In this document: piece after piece, positions 53,483 through 58,268 of the stretch
How the letters are laid out: every line of letters starts with the position of its first letter
Position numbering within the stretch: the first letter of the stretch is position 1
Assembly (NCBI GenBank): GCA_036272915.1
Contig: DATAXV010000112.1
Coordinates: forward strand, 22,510-86,509
Length of the DNA: 64,000 nt
Reading direction: 5' to 3'
Origin: Candidatus Dormiibacterota bacterium
Lineage (GTDB): Bacteria > Chloroflexota > Dormibacteria > Dormibacterales > Dormibacteraceae
Program-made: the position numbers and the translations under genes
Notes under the pieces: generated by a model
Told to the model about the DNA's origin: nothing
The model's input: only the letters and a program-made list of their open reading frames with translations
Database searches by the model: none

Positions 53483-54385
53483 TCAGACCGGAGAGAGCTC
53501 ACCAACCCGAGCCTCGGTCAGCGCGGCGCGAATCTCGTCCCGCAGTCCCGGCCCCGCGGGCTGAAGCGGACGCCGAGGATAGCCGACCGCGCGGCCCTGG
53601 AGATTGATCGCGCATTTCAGACGGGTGGTCATGTCCGGCCGGTCCAGCACCCGCCAAACCGGAAGCAGGCGCTCGTGCAGGTCAAGCGCGGTGGTCAGGT
53701 CCTGAGCCTGGCACGCGTCCCAGAGTTTGACCGATAGCCCAGGCGCCACGCTCAGAATGCCGGCCACGGCGCCGTGCGCCCCGAGGAGATAGGACGCGTG
53801 TAGAAGGGCGTCGACAGCGCTCAGAACCCTCAGCCCGCTTCCGGTCTTACGAACGGCTCGCAGGAGGTCGGCGAGCTTGTGAATGTCGCCTCCACTCTGC
53901 TTGACGGCCACGACCCATTGCAGATCTGCGAGCCGAATCAGGGTCTCCGGCATGATGGTGTTCCAGGGCACGACGTTGTAGATGACGATCGGGAGGCGGA
54001 CGGCCTCTCCGATCTCCTCGTAGTAGCCGATGGTTCCCTCGACATCAGGCGCGAACAGGTAGTGGACCGGTGTGATCTGCAAACCGTCCACACCGGCGTC
54101 TTTCAGCGCTTTCCCGTACCGGATCACGGCCCTCGTCGAGTCCTGGATGATCCCGCTCACCACCGGGACCCGGCCCCCGGCCTCCTCGACGGCGATCCTG
54201 GCCAACTGGAGCGATTCCGCCTCGGTCAGGGTGTGGCCCTCACCCGTGCTACCGCTGACCGTCAAACCGTGAACACCCGCGTCCAGGCAGTACCGCACCT
54301 CGTCACGGAACGCCCCCTCATCGATGTCCTCGTTGCGGTCGAACGGCGTCACGAGTGGTGGAATCACGCCCTTCAGATCCAGCAT
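53483..54385 (-). CDS. dihydrodipicolinate synthase / N-acetylneuraminate lyase family (DapA-like) aldolase
   Basis: Start at MLDLKGVIPPLVTPF (ATG 54385, GGAGG 8 nt upstream). Motifs GSTGEG, IVIYNVP and the Schiff-base Lys in VAVKQSGGD. Confidence 0.8.
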   Translation of the reverse strand: MLDLKGVIPPLVTPFDRNEDIDEGAFRDEVRYCLDAGVHGLTVSGSTGEGHTLTEAESLQLARIAVEEAGGRVPVVSGIIQDSTRAVIRYGKALKDAGVDGLQITPVHYLFAPDVEGTIGYYEEIGEAVRLPIVIYNVVPWNTIMPETLIRLADLQWVVAVKQSGGDIHKLADLLRAVRKTGSGLRVLSAVDALLHASYLLGAHGAVAGILSVAPGLSVKLWDACQAQDLTTALDLHERLLPVWRVLDRPDMTTRLKCAINLQGRAVGYPRRPLQPAGPGLRDEIRAALTEARVGELSPV

Positions 54386-54553: not shown

Positions 54554-55744
54554 TCATGGCAGGCGCCTCCGGAGCTCGGCGATCAGGGCCTCGACGCCCA
54601 TCTCACGCTGCTCGTCGCCCAGCCGCACGGCGAGCGTGTCGCTGGCCTGCTCCCGGTCGCCCATCACCGCCACGCAGGGGACGCGCCGCTCGGCCGCCGC
54701 CCGGATCTGTGCCGGCAGGCGCTCGCTTCCGTCACCGACCTCGACTCGGAAGCCCACCTCCCGGAGACGGGAGGCGGCGCTCCGGGCCGCCCCCACGTGC
54801 CGGCCCGCGATCGGCGCGACCGCCACCTGCACCGGCGCCAGGAAGAGCGGCAGCCACCCCCGCGTCTCCTCCAGCAGGAGGCCGAGGAAGCGTTCGAAGG
54901 AACCGGCGATGGCGCGATGGATGACGACCGGCGCCTCCCGCGCGCCCCGCTCGTTGACATACGCGCAGCCGAAGCGTTGGGGCATGAACTGGTCGATCTG
55001 GAGCGTGCCCGTCTGCCAGGGCCGGCCCTGGCCGTCGCGCATCAGGATGTCGAGCTTGGGCGCGTAGAAGGCACCCTCCCCCTCGACCACCTCGTAGCCG
55101 CCGGGCGCGATCTGATCGACGATGCAGCGCAGCAGCTCCGTCGACCGCCTCCATTCGGCGTCGTCGCCGATGTGGTCCCTGGGCGCCGTCCCCAGGCGCA
55201 GCTCGAACTCGAGGCCGAAGAGCCGGTACAGCCCGCGCGCGAACTCGAGGACCCGGCCGAACTCCTCCTCCACCTGGGACGGGGCCACGAAGATGTGCGT
55301 GTCGTCCTGGCGGAGGCTCTGCACCCGGAAGAGACCGGACAGCACGCCGGAGAGCTCGTTCCGGTGAAGGACATCCTCGCAGAACCAGCGAAGGGGGAGC
55401 TCGCGATAGCTGTGAGGTCGGGAGGCGAAGAGCAGCATCGAGCAGGGGCAGTTGCTCGGCTTGATGCCGAATCGCCGGTCGCCGGCTGTCGCGAAGAACA
55501 TCGACTCCTCGTAGTGGGGGACGTGGCCGGACGTCTCGTACACGGAGACGTCGGCCAGCTGCGGGGTGGAGATCTCCTGGTAGCCGTTTCGGAGGTGCTC
55601 GCGCAGGAAGTACTCGCGGAGCGCCCGGATCACGGTCATCCCCCGCGGCAGCCAGTAGGCCATGCCCGGGGAGGTGGCCTCGAAGTGAGCAAGGTCCAGC
55701 TCCTGCAGCCAGTGACGGTGGTTGACCTCCTGGTCGGCATCCAT
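54554..55744 (-). CDS. threonyl-tRNA synthetase paralogue lacking the N-terminal TGS and editing domains (catalytic core plus anticodon-binding domain only)
   Basis: Begins at the start of the class II core: HRHWLQELDLAHFEATSPGMAYWLPRG. Motifs KPSNCPC, YRELPLR, HRNELSGVLSGLFRVQSLRQDDTHIF, GAFYAPKLD, QTGTLQIDQFMPQRF and VIHRAIAGSFERF. The Zn-ligand positions Cys/His/His are conserved. Confidence 0.85.
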   Translation of the reverse strand: MDADQEVNHRHWLQELDLAHFEATSPGMAYWLPRGMTVIRALREYFLREHLRNGYQEISTPQLADVSVYETSGHVPHYEESMFFATAGDRRFGIKPSNCPCSMLLFASRPHSYRELPLRWFCEDVLHRNELSGVLSGLFRVQSLRQDDTHIFVAPSQVEEEFGRVLEFARGLYRLFGLEFELRLGTAPRDHIGDDAEWRRSTELLRCIVDQIAPGGYEVVEGEGAFYAPKLDILMRDGQGRPWQTGTLQIDQFMPQRFGCAYVNERGAREAPVVIHRAIAGSFERFLGLLLEETRGWLPLFLAPVQVAVAPIAGRHVGAARSAASRLREVGFRVEVGDGSERLPAQIRAAAERRVPCVAVMGDREQASDTLAVRLGDEQREMGVEALIAELRRRLP

Positions 55745-55764
55745 GTCGAATCTCCTCAGAAATG

Positions 55765-55795
55765 AAAAAAGCCCCCGCCCTGTTCGGGCGGGGGC
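55765..55795 (-). terminator. rho-independent terminator 20 nt upstream of the ThrRS-like start codon
   Basis: On the minus strand, GCCCCCGCCC-GAACA-GGGCGGGGGC is a perfect 10-bp stem followed by TTTTTT. Then comes CATTTCTGAGGAGATTCGAC and the ATG. Confidence 0.85.
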
Positions 55796-55810
55796 TTCCT
55801 GGCTCCTTCG

Positions 55811-55903
55811 CTAGCCTGCAGGCGGTGCGTGCAGGCGCGAGCAGCTTGCCCCCACGGCAGTGGTCGTAGTGAAGGAGCTGAACCGGACCACGTGCTGTCG
55901 CAT
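55811..55903 (-). CDS. candidate Thr-rich leader peptide (30 aa)
   Basis: MRQHVVRFSSFTTTTAVGASCSRLHAPPAG, with ACT ACG ACC ACT at 55870..55859. Its stop is 15 nt before the terminator 5' arm. The SD is weak (AAGG). Confidence 0.45.
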   Translation of the reverse strand: MRQHVVRFSSFTTTTAVGASCSRLHAPPAG

Positions 55904-56004
55904 CGCCTTGCCCGGCATTGTGCCATGGATCGTCCCCCGCCGCCGATCCCTCCGTCGAGGGCGGCTCCACAGTGAGCCCGGCCGCCGGAGGAGGCGGGCG
56001 GAGG

Positions 56005-57411
56005 TCACTCGCCGGCAGCCTCGACCGGAGCGGGCGCAGGCCTGGGGGCGATCCGGCGGAGCACGTAGTAGAGGACCGCGGCGACGGCGAAACCGACGTA
56101 GAAGGCGATGTCGGCGCCGTGCAGCGCGCTCGCCACCGGTCCGACCACGATCGACGTGTTCATGAAGGGGACCATGGCGCCGAAGCCGACGACGAAGGCG
56201 ACCAGCGCCGGCCAGCCGCTGGCCAGGTTGCGGAAGGCCAGCGCCGAGCGCAGGAGGGAGGGGCGGTAGCGGCCCCGGCTGTAGAGCCAGTCGATCATCA
56301 CCACCGCGCTGAAGGGCGAGAGCCAGTAGCCGACGAAGAGCAGGACGTTCTCGAAGCGCGTCGAGGTGTCGCCTCCATTGATCCACATGATCGCGGCGAA
56401 GGCCACGACCACCACCGCGGCCGAGATCAGGGGCCGCTTGACCCGCGCGCCCAGGGTCTGGAGGGCAAGGGCGCCGGAGTAGTCGTTCATCGCCGAGGAG
56501 ACGATCGAGGCGAACATGATCGCCACCAGGGCCAGCCCGCTGAGCAGCCCGCCGCCCATCAGCGAGCTCACGCCGGCCGCCGTCTGGTTGGCGACGATGC
56601 TGGCCGCGGCGAGACCGATGGTCATCACCCACACATAGGAGAGGACCATGCCCGCCATGGTGTAGCCGAAGACACCCAGCGTCGAGGAGCTCGGCTTCAT
56701 GTAGCGGCTGTAGTCGGAGGCGTAGGAGGCCCAGGAGATTGCCCCGGAGAGGGCGACCGTCACCATCAGGACGAAGGCCCCGATCAGGGCGCCGCCGCTG
56801 ACGGTGTCGTGGGGCAGCGCGACGTGGTGCTGGAAGATCCGCACGGTGAGGACCAGGAAGAGGGCGATCATGACCAGCGCGCCCCACTTCTCGACCTGGT
56901 GGACCAGCTCGTAGCCGTAGATGCTGATGACACCCTCGCAGGCGAGCACGAGCAGCGCGCCCGCCCAGAAGGGGATGTGGAGGAGGAGGTGGGCGGCCTG
57001 GGCCCCGAAGAGCGCGGTGAGCGCTATCCAGCCGATGGTCGAGAACCACTGCACCACCGCCGGCAGCACCACCGACTTGCCGAACGGCATTCGCGCCAGC
57101 GGGAGCTGCCCGGTGCCGGTCTTCGGCCCCCAGGTGCAGAGGATCGCCACCGGCAGGGTCCCGAGCACGATGCCCAGGACGATGGCGACCAGGCCGAGCC
57201 CGAAGCCAAGCCCGAAGGTCACGGCGAGGGTGCCGATGAAGATCCCGGAGATCTCCATGTTGGGCGTGAACCATACGGTGAACATCCGCCAGATGCCGCC
57301 ATAGCGGCTGTCCTCGGGAATCGGCGCCATCCCCTGCGTCTCGAGGACGGTGTCGCCGGTCCGGGCCGGCCGCGCCCCCTCGTAGGCGGTGAGCTCGTCG
57401 GCGGCGCTCAC
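56005..57411 (-). CDS. NCS1 (purine-cytosine / CytX-like) permease
   Basis: Start placed at GTG 57411, overlapping the tenA-like stop as GTGA. 468 aa, 12-TMS pattern, with the WFTPNMEISG and SDYSRY motifs. The upstream part of the 644-aa track ORF is not supported. Confidence 0.85.
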   Translation of the reverse strand: MSAADELTAYEGARPARTGDTVLETQGMAPIPEDSRYGGIWRMFTVWFTPNMEISGIFIGTLAVTFGLGFGLGLVAIVLGIVLGTLPVAILCTWGPKTGTGQLPLARMPFGKSVVLPAVVQWFSTIGWIALTALFGAQAAHLLLHIPFWAGALLVLACEGVISIYGYELVHQVEKWGALVMIALFLVLTVRIFQHHVALPHDTVSGGALIGAFVLMVTVALSGAISWASYASDYSRYMKPSSSTLGVFGYTMAGMVLSYVWVMTIGLAAASIVANQTAAGVSSLMGGGLLSGLALVAIMFASIVSSAMNDYSGALALQTLGARVKRPLISAAVVVVAFAAIMWINGGDTSTRFENVLLFVGYWLSPFSAVVMIDWLYSRGRYRPSLLRSALAFRNLASGWPALVAFVVGFGAMVPFMNTSIVVGPVASALHGADIAFYVGFAVAAVLYYVLRRIAPRPAPAPVEAAGE

Positions 57412-58070
57412 TGGTGCGCCTCCAGGGCGGGCCAGCCCTCCTGGCGCCAGCACATCTCCCAGAAGGCGACCTCCCACTTGACCACGTTGCGGAAGATCGG
57501 CGCCAGACGCGCCGAGGTGGGCGCCGAGGGCGTGCCGGCAAGCTCGTCGAAGCGGTCGCAGAGGTCGCCGACCAGCTCGCGGAAGCCGGACCCGGTCCAG
57601 TTCTCCACCCAGCCGCGCCAGCGGGAATCGGGCGGGACCGAGGGCAGCACCACCGACCACGTGTCGAGGTAGGAGCGCTCGACCGCGCAGACCGCCGCCA
57701 TCCCCTCGAGCAGGCCGGAGGCGGCGCAACTCTGCACGTAGGCGCCATAGCCGAGGCAGACCGGCCACTCCTCGTCCACGACCGGCGCTCCGAGCGAGGC
57801 CAGCGTCTCCGCCAGCTGCCGGGGTTCGCGCTCCACGTCCTCGCCGAGGCGGGCGAGCAGCCGTTCGAGCTCGGGCGGCGGCGCCGACGCGCGGAGCGCC
57901 ATCAACGCCCGTCCCTCGAGCAGGCAGAAGAGCCGGCACTGCTGCGCCCAGGCGATCAGCGCCGGCTCAGGCAGGGTCCCGGCGGCCAGGCCGCGCACCC
58001 AGGGGTGACCGGCCATCGCCGCCCACAGGTCGCGGTTGCCGTCGACGAGCGTCTCCGTATAACCGCTCAT
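57408..58070 (-). CDS. tenA: TenA/PqqC-like (thiaminase II / aminopyrimidine aminohydrolase family) protein
   Basis: Start at MSGYTETL (ATG 58070). Helical protein with the HPWVRGLAAGTL N-terminal motif and a C-terminal EVAFWEM. It lies downstream of a TPP riboswitch. Confidence 0.7.
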   Translation of the reverse strand: MSGYTETLVDGNRDLWAAMAGHPWVRGLAAGTLPEPALIAWAQQCRLFCLLEGRALMALRASAPPPELERLLARLGEDVEREPRQLAETLASLGAPVVDEEWPVCLGYGAYVQSCAASGLLEGMAAVCAVERSYLDTWSVVLPSVPPDSRWRGWVENWTGSGFRELVGDLCDRFDELAGTPSAPTSARLAPIFRNVVKWEVAFWEMCWRQEGWPALEAHQ

Positions 58071-58171
58071 GGCCGGTTCCCGCCGATCGCAGACCACAGC
58101 GCGCGCGATCCTCGGGGCGGGCGCGGAGCGCGCAGGCGCGCTCCCGTATGAGCGCTGTGAGCGTCACTCAT
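58067..58171 (-). CDS. candidate 34-codon upstream ORF coupled to tenA
   Basis: ATG 58171 lies 7 nt after GGAGGA at the 3' edge of the riboswitch. The peptide is MSDAHSAHTGARLRAPRPPRGSRALWSAIGGNRP. Its TGA overlaps the tenA ATG (ATGA). Confidence 0.3.
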   Translation of the reverse strand: MSDAHSAHTGARLRAPRPPRGSRALWSAIGGNRP

Positions 58172-58268
58172 GTTCTCTTCCTCCGCCGGTTTAACCCGGA
58201 TCAGGTTCTACGGTCGGCACCTCAGCGGTGCCCTCTCAGCCCGGCTGGGCTCCCGTGGTGAGTGCAAA
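58172..58268 (-). promoter_or_regulatory. TPP (THI-box) riboswitch
   Basis: The minus strand reads GGGAGCCCAGCCGGGCUGAGAGGGCACCGCUGAGGUGCCGACCGUAGAACCUGAUCCGGGUUAAACCGGCGGAGGAAGAG. This contains the conserved CUGAGA and ACCUGAUCCGG...ACCGGCG..AGG elements. Confidence 0.85.

What the first reader, a model, noticed from the sequence alone, without database searches (positions are those of the whole stretch)
54554..55744. Editing-domain-less threonyl-tRNA synthetase paralogue
The 396-aa protein starts precisely where the class II catalytic core of ThrRS begins (HRHWLQELDLAHFE..SPGMAYWLPRG). It retains motif 2/3 elements, the Thr-recognising zinc ligand positions (NCPC, QDDTHIF, VIHRAI) and an anticodon-binding domain. 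It lacks the ~240-aa TGS/N2 editing region of bacterial ThrRS. It lies in an accessory context: after a thiamine-salvage pair, before a DapA-family aldolase, and behind its own attenuator. This suggests a specialised function. Candidates are a stress- or starvation-induced ThrRS, a resistance-type duplicate, or an aminoacyl-tRNA/aminoacyl-AMP supplier for a secondary reaction. A housekeeping role seems less likely.
Basis: partly seen in the sequence, partly recalled or inferred. Interest (0 to 1): 0.6.

Follow-up and report, generated by a model that had tools for sequence, protein, structure and literature searches.

The report
Threonine-attenuated spare ThrRS without proofreading
This soil bacterium (candidate phylum Dormibacterota) carries, besides its normal threonyl-tRNA synthetase, a second copy that lacks the proofreading half. 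A threonine-codon mini-gene and terminator precede it and should switch it on only when charged threonine tRNA runs short. This copy also carries an alanine at a position where that change makes the E. coli enzyme resistant to natural ThrRS inhibitors.

Summary
Window 54554-55744 (minus strand) encodes an intact 396-aa ThrRS catalytic core plus anticodon-binding domain, with every zinc and catalytic residue present and no TGS or editing domain.

It is a paralogue. The same genome has a full-length thrS that is only about 38% identical, and only about 3 related genomes in the samples searched carry the short copy.

The 260-nt upstream spacer holds a 30-codon leader ORF with four consecutive Thr codons. 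A conserved G-run, a hairpin ending at the stop codon and a 15-bp terminator follow. All 14 loci of this clade have the same layout, while the flanking genes differ, so the unit is leader plus gene.

A separate actinomycete clade of short ThrRS (Streptomyces thrS2) also has Thr-run leaders. One was annotated in passing in S. lividans (thrL-thrS).

Best reading: a spare ThrRS controlled by ribosome-mediated attenuation and induced when Thr-tRNA charging drops.

New here: the window protein has Ser, Ala and Met at E. coli positions Met332, Gly463 and Leu489. G463A confers obafluorin and borrelidin resistance in E. coli ThrRS. This is a lead towards an inducible resistance copy, not proof.

The mechanism is classical and the editing-less target is essentially unstudied.

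The parts
54554..55744 (-). Short thrS (delta-N ThrRS): class II catalytic core plus anticodon-binding domain, 396 aa
   Evidence: ORF; Pfam and NCBIfam matches; PDB ThrRS matches at E 1e-88 with the same boundaries as E. coli 242-642 constructs; family alignment with invariant catalytic residues.
55752..55757 (-). Shine-Dalgarno GAGGAG, 7 nt before the ATG at 55744
   Evidence: Read directly from the sequence. It is not part of the terminator stem, so control is transcriptional.
55765..55800 (-). Intrinsic terminator AGGAAGCCCCCGCCC-GAACA-GGGCGGGGGCUUUUUU (15 pairs plus U6)
   Evidence: Consensus scan: one of only 2 terminator-like sites in 5.1 kb. It forms in every fold. The outer pairs covary across 14 loci.
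55811..55903 (-). Leader ORF thrL-like, 30 codons: MRQHVVRFSSFTTTTAVGASCSRLHAPPAG*
   Evidence: Equivalent ORFs with 3-5 consecutive Thr codons lie upstream of all 14 clade members examined.
55859..55870 (-). Regulatory codons ACU ACG ACC ACU (Thr x4)
   Evidence: ACU makes up about 1 of 85 Thr codons in six genes of the window, yet fills 2 of the 4 leader Thr codons.
55848..55855 (-). G-run GUGGGGGC, the candidate antiterminator strand, complementary to GCCCCCGC (55788-55795) in the terminator 5' arm
   Evidence: GGGGG is invariant, lying 4-5 nt after the last Thr codon in 13 of 14 loci; L192 has GGCGGG, which pairs in a shifted register. It pairs with the 5' arm in truncated-transcript folds with a ribosome masked at Thr1 or Thr2 in 10 of 12 loci. 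The energy control was not significant, so this pairing is inferred.
55814..55836 (-). Hairpin P2 (GCCUGCA...UGCAGGC) ending at the leader stop codon
   Evidence: Three of 7 pairs show changes on both sides across 14 loci, and 94% of cells are paired.
55917..55922 (-). Possible -10 box CACAAT, 13 nt before the leader ATG
   Evidence: Sequence only. In most relatives a TANNNT hexamer lies 6-7 nt before the leader start codon, which suggests leaderless leader mRNAs. The sigma-70 consensus scan found nothing. Weak evidence.

Best explanation
The unit is promoter + Thr-codon leader ORF + terminator + a ThrRS gene that lacks the N-terminal domains. It is an auxiliary threonyl-tRNA synthetase under ribosome-mediated transcription attenuation.

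When Thr-tRNA(Thr) is plentiful, the ribosome runs through the four Thr codons to the leader stop. The 15-bp terminator then forms and transcription ends 20 nt before the thrS start.

When charging of tRNA(Thr) falls, the ribosome stalls at the first Thr codons. Possible causes are threonine starvation, or failure or inhibition of the housekeeping ThrRS. The G-run just beyond the stalled ribosome then pairs with the C-run of the terminator's 5' arm. RNA polymerase reads through and the spare enzyme is made.

The enzyme has every residue needed to activate threonine and charge tRNA(Thr), but it cannot hydrolyse Ser-tRNA(Thr) itself. The only editing domain of that kind in the genome belongs to the housekeeping ThrRS, which would have to proofread in trans if anything does.

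Shown here: the gene, the paralogy, the leader ORF, the terminator, and their conservation as a unit. Inferred: the antiterminator pairing, induction by low charging, enzyme activity, and trans-editing.
For: - **Intact enzyme.** It passes the TIGR00418 cut-off on the core alone. C334, H385, H511, R363, E365, D383, Y462, K465, Q484 and R520 (E. coli numbering) are invariant in all 46 clade members; the roles of the residues it names (Cys334, His385, His511, Gln381, Asp383, Tyr462, Gln484) are taken from PMC9880928, the others from my own knowledge. Its boundaries equal the active E. coli 242-642 constructs.
- **Paralogue.** A full-length thrS lies in the same genome. Four other carrier genomes (three Dormibacterota MAGs and one labelled Terriglobales) also have a full-length copy.
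- **Sporadic distribution.** One other genome of 36 in the family carries it. The leader model gives strong hits in 2 of 151 genomes of the class, and only one hit in the own genome.
- **Foreign origin.** The clade is monophyletic (SH-aLRT 100) and sits among full-length ThrRS of other phyla, far from the host's own ThrRS.
- **Conserved leader.** In 14 of 14 loci, at 52-88% protein identity and in different neighbourhoods, the order is the same: Thr run, G-run, hairpin, stop, terminator. The hairpin and terminator are supported by compensatory changes; 0 of 500 shuffles reach the observed covariation score.
- **Precedent.** The S. lividans RNA-seq reannotation lists a leaderless thrL upstream of a thrS (PMC8079986). 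Short thrS2 genes of Streptomyces, Microbispora, Dactylosporangium and Kitasatospora have ...TTTP..VPAR* leaders. S. coelicolor thrS2 belongs to the WblC regulon, which is induced by translation inhibitors (PMC7157823).
Against: - No expression data could be obtained.
- The terminator is so stable that equilibrium folds always keep it.
- The G-run/C-run duplex is no stronger than duplexes formed by shuffled leader segments (25/500 to 476/500 shuffles as good). The antiterminator therefore rests on positional and sequence invariance, not on energy or covariation.
- In one subclade the G-run can also close a local hairpin, which complicates the simple model.
- It is unclear why more ThrRS would help under true threonine starvation.
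- Thr depletion of the protein is only mild: 3.0% against 3.9% in the core of the host's own ThrRS.
Confidence: 0.8

Rival explanations
1. Inducible inhibitor-resistant ThrRS. This is a sharper version of the best explanation, not exclusive of it. The spare enzyme exists to keep tRNA(Thr) charged when a natural ThrRS inhibitor of the borrelidin or obafluorin kind blocks the housekeeping enzyme. The attenuator acts as the drug sensor, as in Streptomyces TrpRS1 and indolmycin.
For: - The window protein has Ala at E. coli Gly463, Ser at Met332 and Met at Leu489.
- Gly463 is G in 84 of 85 full-length ThrRS here and 94 of 95 in the representative set, but Ala in 26 of 46 clade members, with at least 9 changes on the tree.
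- Met332 is M in 85 of 85 and 95 of 95 full-length enzymes, but is replaced in 38 of 46 clade members and 7 of 7 actinomycete short copies.
- PMC11252418 shows that G463S and G463A in E. coli ThrRS abolish obafluorin inhibition and lower borrelidin inhibition more than 20-fold without loss of activation activity. It also shows that the immunity ThrRS ObaO has Ser463 and Met489.
- Met332 moves to accommodate obafluorin (PMC9880928).
- The carriers come from soil-type metagenomes and the distribution is sporadic, as expected after horizontal transfer.
Against: - 20 of 46 clade members keep Gly463.
- 20 other short-ThrRS clusters from other lineages keep Met332 (19 of 20) and Gly463 (20 of 20), so resistance cannot explain the short architecture in general.
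- L489M alone did not confer obafluorin resistance.
- No biosynthetic cluster lies next to the gene.
- No inhibitor was tested on this protein.
- The substitutions could instead reflect relaxed or compensatory evolution after loss of the N-terminal domains.
Confidence: 0.3
2. Programmed low-fidelity charging. The editing-less enzyme is switched on under threonine starvation so that tRNA(Thr) is charged partly with serine, which keeps ribosomes moving at the price of Ser-for-Thr errors.
For: - The protein has no editing domain.
- No free-standing tRNA_SAD editing factor is found in the 93%-complete genome.
- Induction is predicted exactly when Thr is scarce.
- An editing-impaired ThrRS (Anabaena T2) produces Ser-tRNA(Thr) (PMC4787780).
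Against: - The housekeeping ThrRS is present with its editing domain and could edit in trans, as shown for Anabaena T1.
- There is no evidence that mistranslation is beneficial here.
- This cannot be tested from sequence.
Confidence: 0.08
3. Non-translational role. The protein supplies Thr-AMP or Thr-tRNA to a secondary reaction together with the neighbouring DapA-like aldolase or the thiamine-salvage genes.
For: - The gene lies next to a DapA-family gene and a TPP-riboswitch tenA-NCS1 pair.
- Truncated aaRS paralogues with biosynthetic roles are known in general.
Against: - The neighbours are not conserved. The closest relative (88% identity, L185) has no dapA gene downstream. L189 has the gene directly between cofE and the HTH regulator, and other relatives sit after cysO-cysM-mec clusters.
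- The anticodon-binding domain and all tRNA-charging residues are kept.
- The gene has its own promoter, leader and terminator, and a 168-nt spacer separates it from the DapA-like gene.
Confidence: 0.03
4. The gene is the lineage's ordinary housekeeping ThrRS, or a fragment of a broken full-length gene.
For: None beyond the bare fact that it scores as thrS.
Against: - A full-length thrS is present in the same genome.
- Relatives use full-length enzymes.
- The N-terminus is the same in 46 family members.
- The upstream DNA is a conserved leader and terminator, not a decayed coding region.
- Two apparently 'short' database entries that really are fragments (P0062/L195 with an N-gap, and L106) look different.
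Confidence: 0.01

Closest known systems
Engineered E. coli delta-N ThrRS (residues 242-642; PDB 1EVK/1EVL, 4HWO, 8H98 and others)
   Same: Same domain content and almost the same boundaries: window residues 8-393 align with construct residues 2-389. The construct has amino-acid activation activity in assays (PMC11252418). From my own knowledge (Dock-Bregeon et al. 2000) it charges tRNA(Thr) but mischarges serine.
   Different: The construct is a laboratory truncation. The window gene is natural and conserved, with its own regulation, is about 40% identical, and carries S332, A463 and M489.
Streptomyces thrL-thrS2 (S. lividans SLIV_19412/19410; S. coelicolor thrS2 = SCO3778 by my inference, which the papers read do not state)
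   Same: A second, short ThrRS (profile positions 166-564) sits beside a full-length thrS and is preceded by a short, often leaderless ORF with a Thr run and a GC hairpin (PMC8079986). It belongs to the antibiotic-stress WblC regulon (PMC7157823).
   Different: It forms a separate clade, 38-40% identical, that groups with actinomycete and Dormibacterota housekeeping ThrRS rather than with the window's clade. Its leader and terminator sequences differ and the hairpin lacks a clear U-tract. It keeps Gly463 and has Ser332 and Gln489. That SLIV_19410 itself is short is inferred from orthologues; I did not read its sequence.
S. coelicolor TrpRS1 (indolmycin-resistant auxiliary TrpRS under a Trp-codon attenuator)
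   Same: Same logic: an auxiliary aaRS paralogue behind a leader-peptide attenuator with codons for its own amino acid, so that inhibition of the housekeeping enzyme induces the spare one. Attenuators upstream of trpS and leuS in Streptomyces are reported in PMC1262725, and TrpRS1 resistance is listed in PMC9437257. The attenuation experiments of Vecchione and Sello (2010) are my own knowledge.
   Different: A different amino acid and enzyme class. TrpRS has no editing domain to lose. Resistance is demonstrated there and only suggested here.
ObaO and BorO, immunity ThrRS of obafluorin and borrelidin producers
   Same: A second ThrRS beside the housekeeping one. ObaO has Ser at Gly463 and Met at Leu489, and the window protein has Ala and Met at these positions. 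G463A is experimentally equivalent to G463S (PMC11252418).
   Different: ObaO is full-length (construct residues 241-637 for the core) and encoded in the producer's gene cluster. No leader-peptide attenuator is described for it in the papers read. The window gene lacks the editing half and has no cluster nearby.
Bacillus subtilis thrZ (spare ThrRS induced when ThrS activity or threonine is limiting)
   Same: A normally silent second ThrRS is switched on by a drop in tRNA(Thr) charging (my own knowledge: Putzer et al. 1990/1992; the thrS/thrZ duplication is mentioned in PMC1475646).
   Different: thrZ is full-length with an editing domain and is controlled by a T-box riboswitch. No T-box was found here.
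Anabaena T1/T2 ThrRS pair; crenarchaeal ThrRS-cat/ThrRS-ed; yeast mitochondrial MST1
   Same: These are natural ThrRS with impaired or absent cis-editing. In Anabaena the stress-induced T2 mischarges serine and the housekeeping T1 edits in trans (PMC4787780).
   Different: T2 keeps a degenerate editing domain and is zinc-regulated. The crenarchaeal system has a dedicated free-standing editing protein, and none is found here. The archaeal-type thrS model scores far below its cut-off (166 against 484 bits).

Membership tests
Threonyl-tRNA synthetase (bacterial type, TIGR00418) | Whole-protein score above the curated equivalog cut-off | tested here: met
   393.3 bits against 383.65, although only profile positions 170-563 are matched.
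Threonyl-tRNA synthetase (bacterial type, TIGR00418) | Active-site zinc ligands Cys334/His385/His511 and threonine/ATP-binding residues (R363, E365, Q381, D383, Y462, K465, Q484, R520) | tested here: met
   All are present in the window protein and invariant or nearly so in 46 clade members. The roles of Cys334, His385, His511, Gln381, Asp383, Tyr462 and Gln484 come from PMC9880928; those of R363, E365, K465 and R520 are my own knowledge.
Threonyl-tRNA synthetase (bacterial type, TIGR00418) | Class IIa anticodon-binding domain | tested here: met
   PF03129, residues 306-393, E 2.1e-13.
Threonyl-tRNA synthetase (bacterial type, TIGR00418) | N-terminal TGS (N1) and editing (N2, tRNA_SAD) domains | tested here: not met
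   No PF02824 or PF07973 match. The protein starts at the equivalent of E. coli residue ~236, and the upstream DNA is the leader and terminator.
Threonyl-tRNA synthetase (bacterial type, TIGR00418) | Aminoacylation of tRNA(Thr) | not testable with these tools
   Needs an enzyme assay.
Leader-peptide (ribosome-mediated) transcription attenuator | Short ORF with a run of codons for the regulating amino acid | tested here: met
   A 30-codon ORF with 4 consecutive Thr codons. Runs of 3-5 Thr codons occur in 14 of 14 related loci.
Leader-peptide (ribosome-mediated) transcription attenuator | Intrinsic terminator between the leader ORF and the regulated gene | tested here: met
   A 15-pair stem plus U6 at 55800-55765, conserved with compensatory changes.
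Leader-peptide (ribosome-mediated) transcription attenuator | Alternative antiterminator pairing that depends on where the ribosome stalls | tested here: inconclusive
   The G-run pairs with the terminator 5' arm in 10 of 12 masked, truncated folds, and the G-run is invariant at the RNA level. However, the pairs never vary and the duplex energy is not better than shuffles.
Leader-peptide (ribosome-mediated) transcription attenuator | Read-through increases when the cognate charged tRNA is limiting | not testable with these tools
This needs reporter or Term-seq experiments.
Rfam Thr_leader (RF00506, gammaproteobacterial thrL) | Match at or above the gathering score | tested here: not met
   23.5 bits against 55, E 0.5. 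This is a functional analogue, not a member.
T-box-controlled aaRS genes (thrS/thrZ of Bacillus) | T-box leader RNA upstream | tested here: not met
   No T-box match in the permissive or gathering Rfam scans.
Immunity/resistance ThrRS (ObaO type) | Second ThrRS copy with a non-glycine residue at E. coli position 463 | tested here: met
   A228 in the motif FYAPK. The host's own ThrRS has FYGPK.
Immunity/resistance ThrRS (ObaO type) | Encoded within or next to the inhibitor's biosynthetic gene cluster | tested here: not met
   The neighbours are a TenA-like gene, an NCS1 permease, a DapA-like gene, cofE and an HTH regulator. No PKS, NRPS or beta-lactone genes lie within about 5 kb.
Immunity/resistance ThrRS (ObaO type) | Measured insensitivity to the inhibitor | not testable with these tools
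   Needs an enzyme or growth assay.
Crenarchaeal split ThrRS (ThrRS-cat + ThrRS-ed) | Partner gene for a free-standing editing protein; archaeal-type catalytic sequence | tested here: not met
   tRNA_SAD is found only in the full-length ThrRS and in an AlaRS-sized frame. The archaeal thrS model NF003068 scores 166 bits against a cut-off of 484.

The most novel reading that the evidence does not exclude
The leader plus delta-N thrS cassette of this clade is a horizontally mobile, self-sensing resistance module against natural ThrRS inhibitors. The drug lowers Thr-tRNA charging, and the Thr-codon leader converts that drop into read-through. A conformationally stiffened core enzyme (Ala463, with no Met332) is then made. 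It needs no editing domain of its own, because the drug-blocked housekeeping ThrRS still has a working editing site and proofreads Ser-tRNA(Thr) in trans.
Probability: 0.25. Interest if true: 0.8.

Novelty: new variant of a known kind. Interest (0 to 1): 0.6.

Why it matters
ThrRS is the textbook case of a synthetase that needs proofreading against serine. Natural bacterial copies that do without the editing domain are absent from the reviews I could read: PMC9437257 lists only Anabaena T2 and metazoan ThrRS-L. Here such a copy is coupled to a conserved threonine-sensing attenuator, and the pairing recurs in at least two separate clades (Dormibacterota-type and actinomycete thrS2).

Three questions become directly testable:
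- How do cells trade translational fidelity against charging capacity under stress?
- Can a housekeeping synthetase serve as a trans-editor for a minimal paralogue?
- Do environmental bacteria carry inducible, target-replacement resistance to ThrRS inhibitors, which are under development as anti-infectives?

The Ala463 signature gives a concrete, cheap experiment.

The leader is also an uncatalogued RNA element. It has no Rfam family, and a covariance model built here finds it specifically.

Tried and rejected
- **Metagenome scan.** Only L105 was useful, so I used exact-protein look-ups instead. Two of these returned no DNA because the files were too large.
- **Back-translated S. lividans thrL pattern.** No hit among the species representatives.
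- **False 'short' hits.** P0062/L195 and L106 looked short but are a gapped scaffold and a full-length gene. Both were excluded.
- **Equilibrium folding with a masked ribosome.** It never removes the terminator. Only truncated, co-transcriptional folds show the alternative pairing.
- **Duplex-energy control against shuffles.** Not significant, so I do not claim energetic support for the antiterminator.
- **'Threonine-free enzyme' idea from earlier notes.** Here the depletion is only mild: 3.0% Thr, clade mean 2.7%, against 3.7-4.2% in full-length cores. Some unrelated short clusters do have 0-0.2% Thr.
- **Pocket substitutions as a general feature of short ThrRS.** Rejected: 20 other short clusters keep Met332 and Gly463.
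- **Functional link to the thiamine genes or the DapA-like gene.** Rejected because the neighbourhoods are not conserved.
- **T-box or known Rfam leader.** Rejected.
- **Structure prediction.** Not run, because the sequence match to solved ThrRS cores is unambiguous.
Full report
**Observation.** The ORF at 54554-55744 lies on the minus strand and encodes 396 aa.
- Pfam finds only the class II core (tRNA-synt_2b, residues 88-293) and the class IIa anticodon-binding domain (306-393).
- The curated thrS model TIGR00418 is passed (393.3 bits against 383.65), although only profile positions 170-563 of 565 are matched.
- Against solved structures the protein aligns with E. coli ThrRS residues 243-630, and end to end with the crystallised 242-642 constructs.
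C99, H150 and H276 are the zinc ligands (E. coli C334, H385, H511; window numbering + 235).
- The 260 nt upstream contain no remnant of an N-terminal coding region.

**Paralogy and distribution.**
- The window's genome is a 5.0-Mb MAG, 93% complete. It has a full-length thrS on another contig (C110:10236-11894, 688 bits). The core of that thrS is only about 38% identical to the short protein.
- A genome of the same family turned out to be a named 'Candidatus Dormiibacterota' MAG (compare), so the host is a Dormibacterota bacterium.
- Among 36 same-family genomes only that one other carries the short form.
- A covariance model of the leader gives strong hits in only 2 of 151 genomes of the class, and exactly one in the own genome.
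- Four other carrier genomes (three Dormibacterota MAGs and one labelled Terriglobales) all have a full-length thrS as well.
- Metagenomes hold a family of 392-410-aa proteins, 52-88% identical to the window's.

**Phylogeny (quick ML trees).**
- This family (46 rows) is monophyletic (SH-aLRT 100). It nests among full-length ThrRS of other phyla, with Myxococcota-type enzymes closest at 47-50% identity. It is far from the Dormibacterota housekeeping enzymes, which fits horizontal acquisition.
- Actinomycetes have their own short ThrRS, thrS2 (Streptomyces, Microbispora, Dactylosporangium, Kitasatospora). It forms a separate clade next to the actinomycete and Dormibacterota housekeeping enzymes.
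- On this tree the short architecture therefore arose at least twice. The caveat is that the search was short and long branches meet.

**The leader.** Between the NCS1 permease stop (56005) and the thrS start (55744), read on the minus strand, lie in order:
- a possible -10 box, CACAAT;
- a 30-codon ORF (55903-55811), MRQHVVRFSSFTTTTAVGASCSRLHAPPAG, with four consecutive Thr codons ACU ACG ACC ACU (55870-55859);
- a G-run, GUGGGGGC (55855-55848);
- a 7-bp hairpin that ends at the stop codon (55836-55814);
- a 15-pair terminator with U6 (55800-55765);
- the RBS GAGGAG and the ATG.

ACU is about 1 in 85 Thr codons in six genes of the window, but 2 of the 4 leader Thr codons.

The same order of elements precedes all 14 clade members for which I obtained DNA. 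They carry 3-5 consecutive Thr codons, for example MSRRFCTLTTTQLGA..., MQVAISFHVATTTTAKGA... and MSALVSRPVTTTTNRGT....

In the alignment the Thr codons, the GGGGG and the terminator core are invariant. The hairpin and the outer terminator pairs show compensatory changes: 7 pairs change on both sides, and 0 of 500 shuffles reach the covariation score.

In most relatives a TANNNT hexamer lies 6-7 nt before the leader start codon, which suggests leaderless leader transcripts.

The gene neighbourhoods differ completely between loci. The contexts seen are cofE/HTH, cysO-cysM-mec, and others. In L189 the short thrS sits directly between cofE and the HTH regulator, whereas in the window the thiamine pair and the DapA-like gene are interposed. 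The conserved unit is therefore leader plus gene, and the 'accessory context' is incidental.

**Mechanism.**
- Equilibrium folds always keep the very stable terminator.
- In folds of the transcript cut before the 3' arm, with a ribosome masked on the first or second Thr codon, the G-run pairs with GCCCCCGC of the 5' arm in 10 of 12 loci. With the ribosome on the third Thr codon the G-run is covered.
- The spacing fits: the G-run starts 13-20 nt after the first Thr codon.
- In L192 the G-run reads GGCGGG and pairs in a shifted register with CCCGCC.
- The Gly codon in the run is GGG in every one of the 13 loci that have it, and the preceding codon always ends in G. This points to an RNA-level constraint.
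- Against this, the pairs never vary, and the duplex is no stronger than duplexes made by shuffled leader segments.

I therefore regard attenuation as well supported by anatomy and conservation, and the specific antiterminator as inferred.

**Link to the literature.**
- Actinomycete thrS2 genes are also preceded by Thr-run leaders (MQRAHVSRTTTPETVPAR, MKRRAAARTTTPESVPAR and others) and a GC hairpin.
- The S. lividans RNA-seq reannotation lists a leaderless thrL (MKRVRPFLETTPGFVPAR) upstream of 'thrS' SLIV_19410, with an unclear terminator (PMC8079986).
- S. coelicolor thrS2 is named among WblC/WhiB7-activated genes (PMC7157823). SCO3778, called threonyl tRNA synthetase, has a sigma-E site (PMC10771440); that thrS2 is SCO3778 is my inference.
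- None of these papers mentions the missing editing domain.
- A 2022 review of duplicated aaRS lists only Anabaena T2 and ThrRS-L for ThrRS (PMC9437257).
- Classical attenuators upstream of trpS and leuS in Streptomyces were predicted in 2005, with none for threonine (PMC1262725).

The kind of system (an attenuator-controlled auxiliary aaRS) is therefore known. The editing-less ThrRS target and this leader family are not described in what I could search.

**Editing.** tRNA_SAD domains occur in the genome only in the full-length ThrRS and in an AlaRS-sized frame. No free-standing editing factor of the AlaX or ThrRS-ed kind was found. Proofreading of Ser-tRNA(Thr), if any, would have to come in trans from the housekeeping ThrRS, as shown for Anabaena T1 acting on T2 products (PMC4787780).

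**A new lead: pocket substitutions.**
- All catalytic residues are invariant, but three pocket positions differ. The window protein reads IKPSNCP / FYAPK / QFMP where its own housekeeping enzyme reads LRPMNCP / FYGPK / FQLP. In E. coli terms these are Ser332, Ala463 and Met489.
- Gly463 is G in 84 of 85 and 94 of 95 full-length ThrRS, but Ala in 26 of 46 clade members, with at least 9 changes on the tree.
- Met332 is M in all 180 full-length sequences examined, but replaced in 38 of 46 clade members and in 7 of 7 actinomycete short copies.
- PMC11252418 shows that G463S or G463A makes E. coli ThrRS insensitive to obafluorin and more than 20-fold less sensitive to borrelidin without loss of activation activity. 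It also shows that the immunity enzyme ObaO has Ser463 and Met489.
- PMC9880928 notes that Met332 moves to accommodate obafluorin.
- Combined with an attenuator that fires when charging drops, this fits an inducible target-replacement resistance, like indolmycin-resistant TrpRS1.
- The limits are clear. 20 of 46 members keep Gly463. 20 unrelated short-ThrRS clusters keep Met332 and Gly463. There is no biosynthetic cluster nearby, and nothing was assayed.

**Other tests.** Threonine content is only mildly reduced: 3.0% in the window protein and a clade mean of 2.7%, against 3.7-4.2% in full-length cores. This clade is therefore not the 'threonine-free' type that earlier notes describe, although some unrelated short clusters have 0-0.2% Thr.

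**Verdict.** The best explanation is an auxiliary ThrRS without the N-terminal domains, under a Thr-codon leader-peptide attenuator and induced by low Thr-tRNA charging (confidence 0.8). An inhibitor-resistance role is a plausible sharpening (about 0.25-0.3). Earlier notes of this scan report the same module in several other phyla. I treated them as leads and tested what I could here.

Noticed in passing
window 58162-58266 (-), 57408-58097 (-), 56005-57330 (-): A TPP riboswitch (53.0 bits, just under the 54.3 gathering score, E 1.7e-8) precedes a TenA-like gene and an NCS1/CytX-like permease. The permease most likely starts at the ATG at 57330 (MAPIPEDSRYGG...), not at the start of the 644-aa ORF. 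This thiamine-salvage pair is absent from the corresponding place in relatives (L189).
   Followed up: partly
window 53483-54385 (-): The DapA-family gene is below every equivalog cut-off (dapA 158 bits against 206). Its likely start is the ATG at 54385 with a GGAGG RBS, which leaves a 168-nt spacer after thrS. The gene is missing downstream of the closest relative's thrS (L185), so it is probably an independent insertion or loss.
   Followed up: partly
L302 (G034:C70:30071-30196), 1501-1626: A related genome has another leader-like element with the same GCCCCCGCC...GGCGGGGGC terminator. Its short ORF reads MSTRVPIMSITILALAGAG... and is rich in Ile and Leu, so it may be a branched-chain amino-acid attenuator of the same build. 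Several weaker hits of the leader model in other relatives were not examined.
   Followed up: no
L290 (Streptomyces albogriseolus), about 140 nt upstream of the short thrS2: The thrL-like leader reads ACGACGA-GCCGG, one base short of its S. werraensis orthologue. This shifts the frame after two Thr codons. It is either an assembly error or a decayed leader.
   Followed up: no
leader ORFs of 14 loci (alignment A2, columns 78-96): The leader peptides end in ...PPAG* or ...PPAR*, and the actinomycete thrS2 leaders end in ...VPAR*. The Pro-rich end overlaps the 3' strand of hairpin P2, so it may be an RNA constraint. It could also slow the ribosome at the stop codon next to the terminator.
   Followed up: no
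P0154, P0156, P0162, P0218, P0269 (representative clusters): Some unrelated short ThrRS clusters contain 0-0.2% threonine, that is, almost no Thr codons in the gene for the enzyme that charges tRNA(Thr). This is not the case in the window's clade.
   Followed up: partly
P0062 / L195 411-1640: This database 'short ThrRS' is an artefact. The contig has a run of N inside a full-length thrS, and the N-terminal part is coded upstream.
   Followed up: yes
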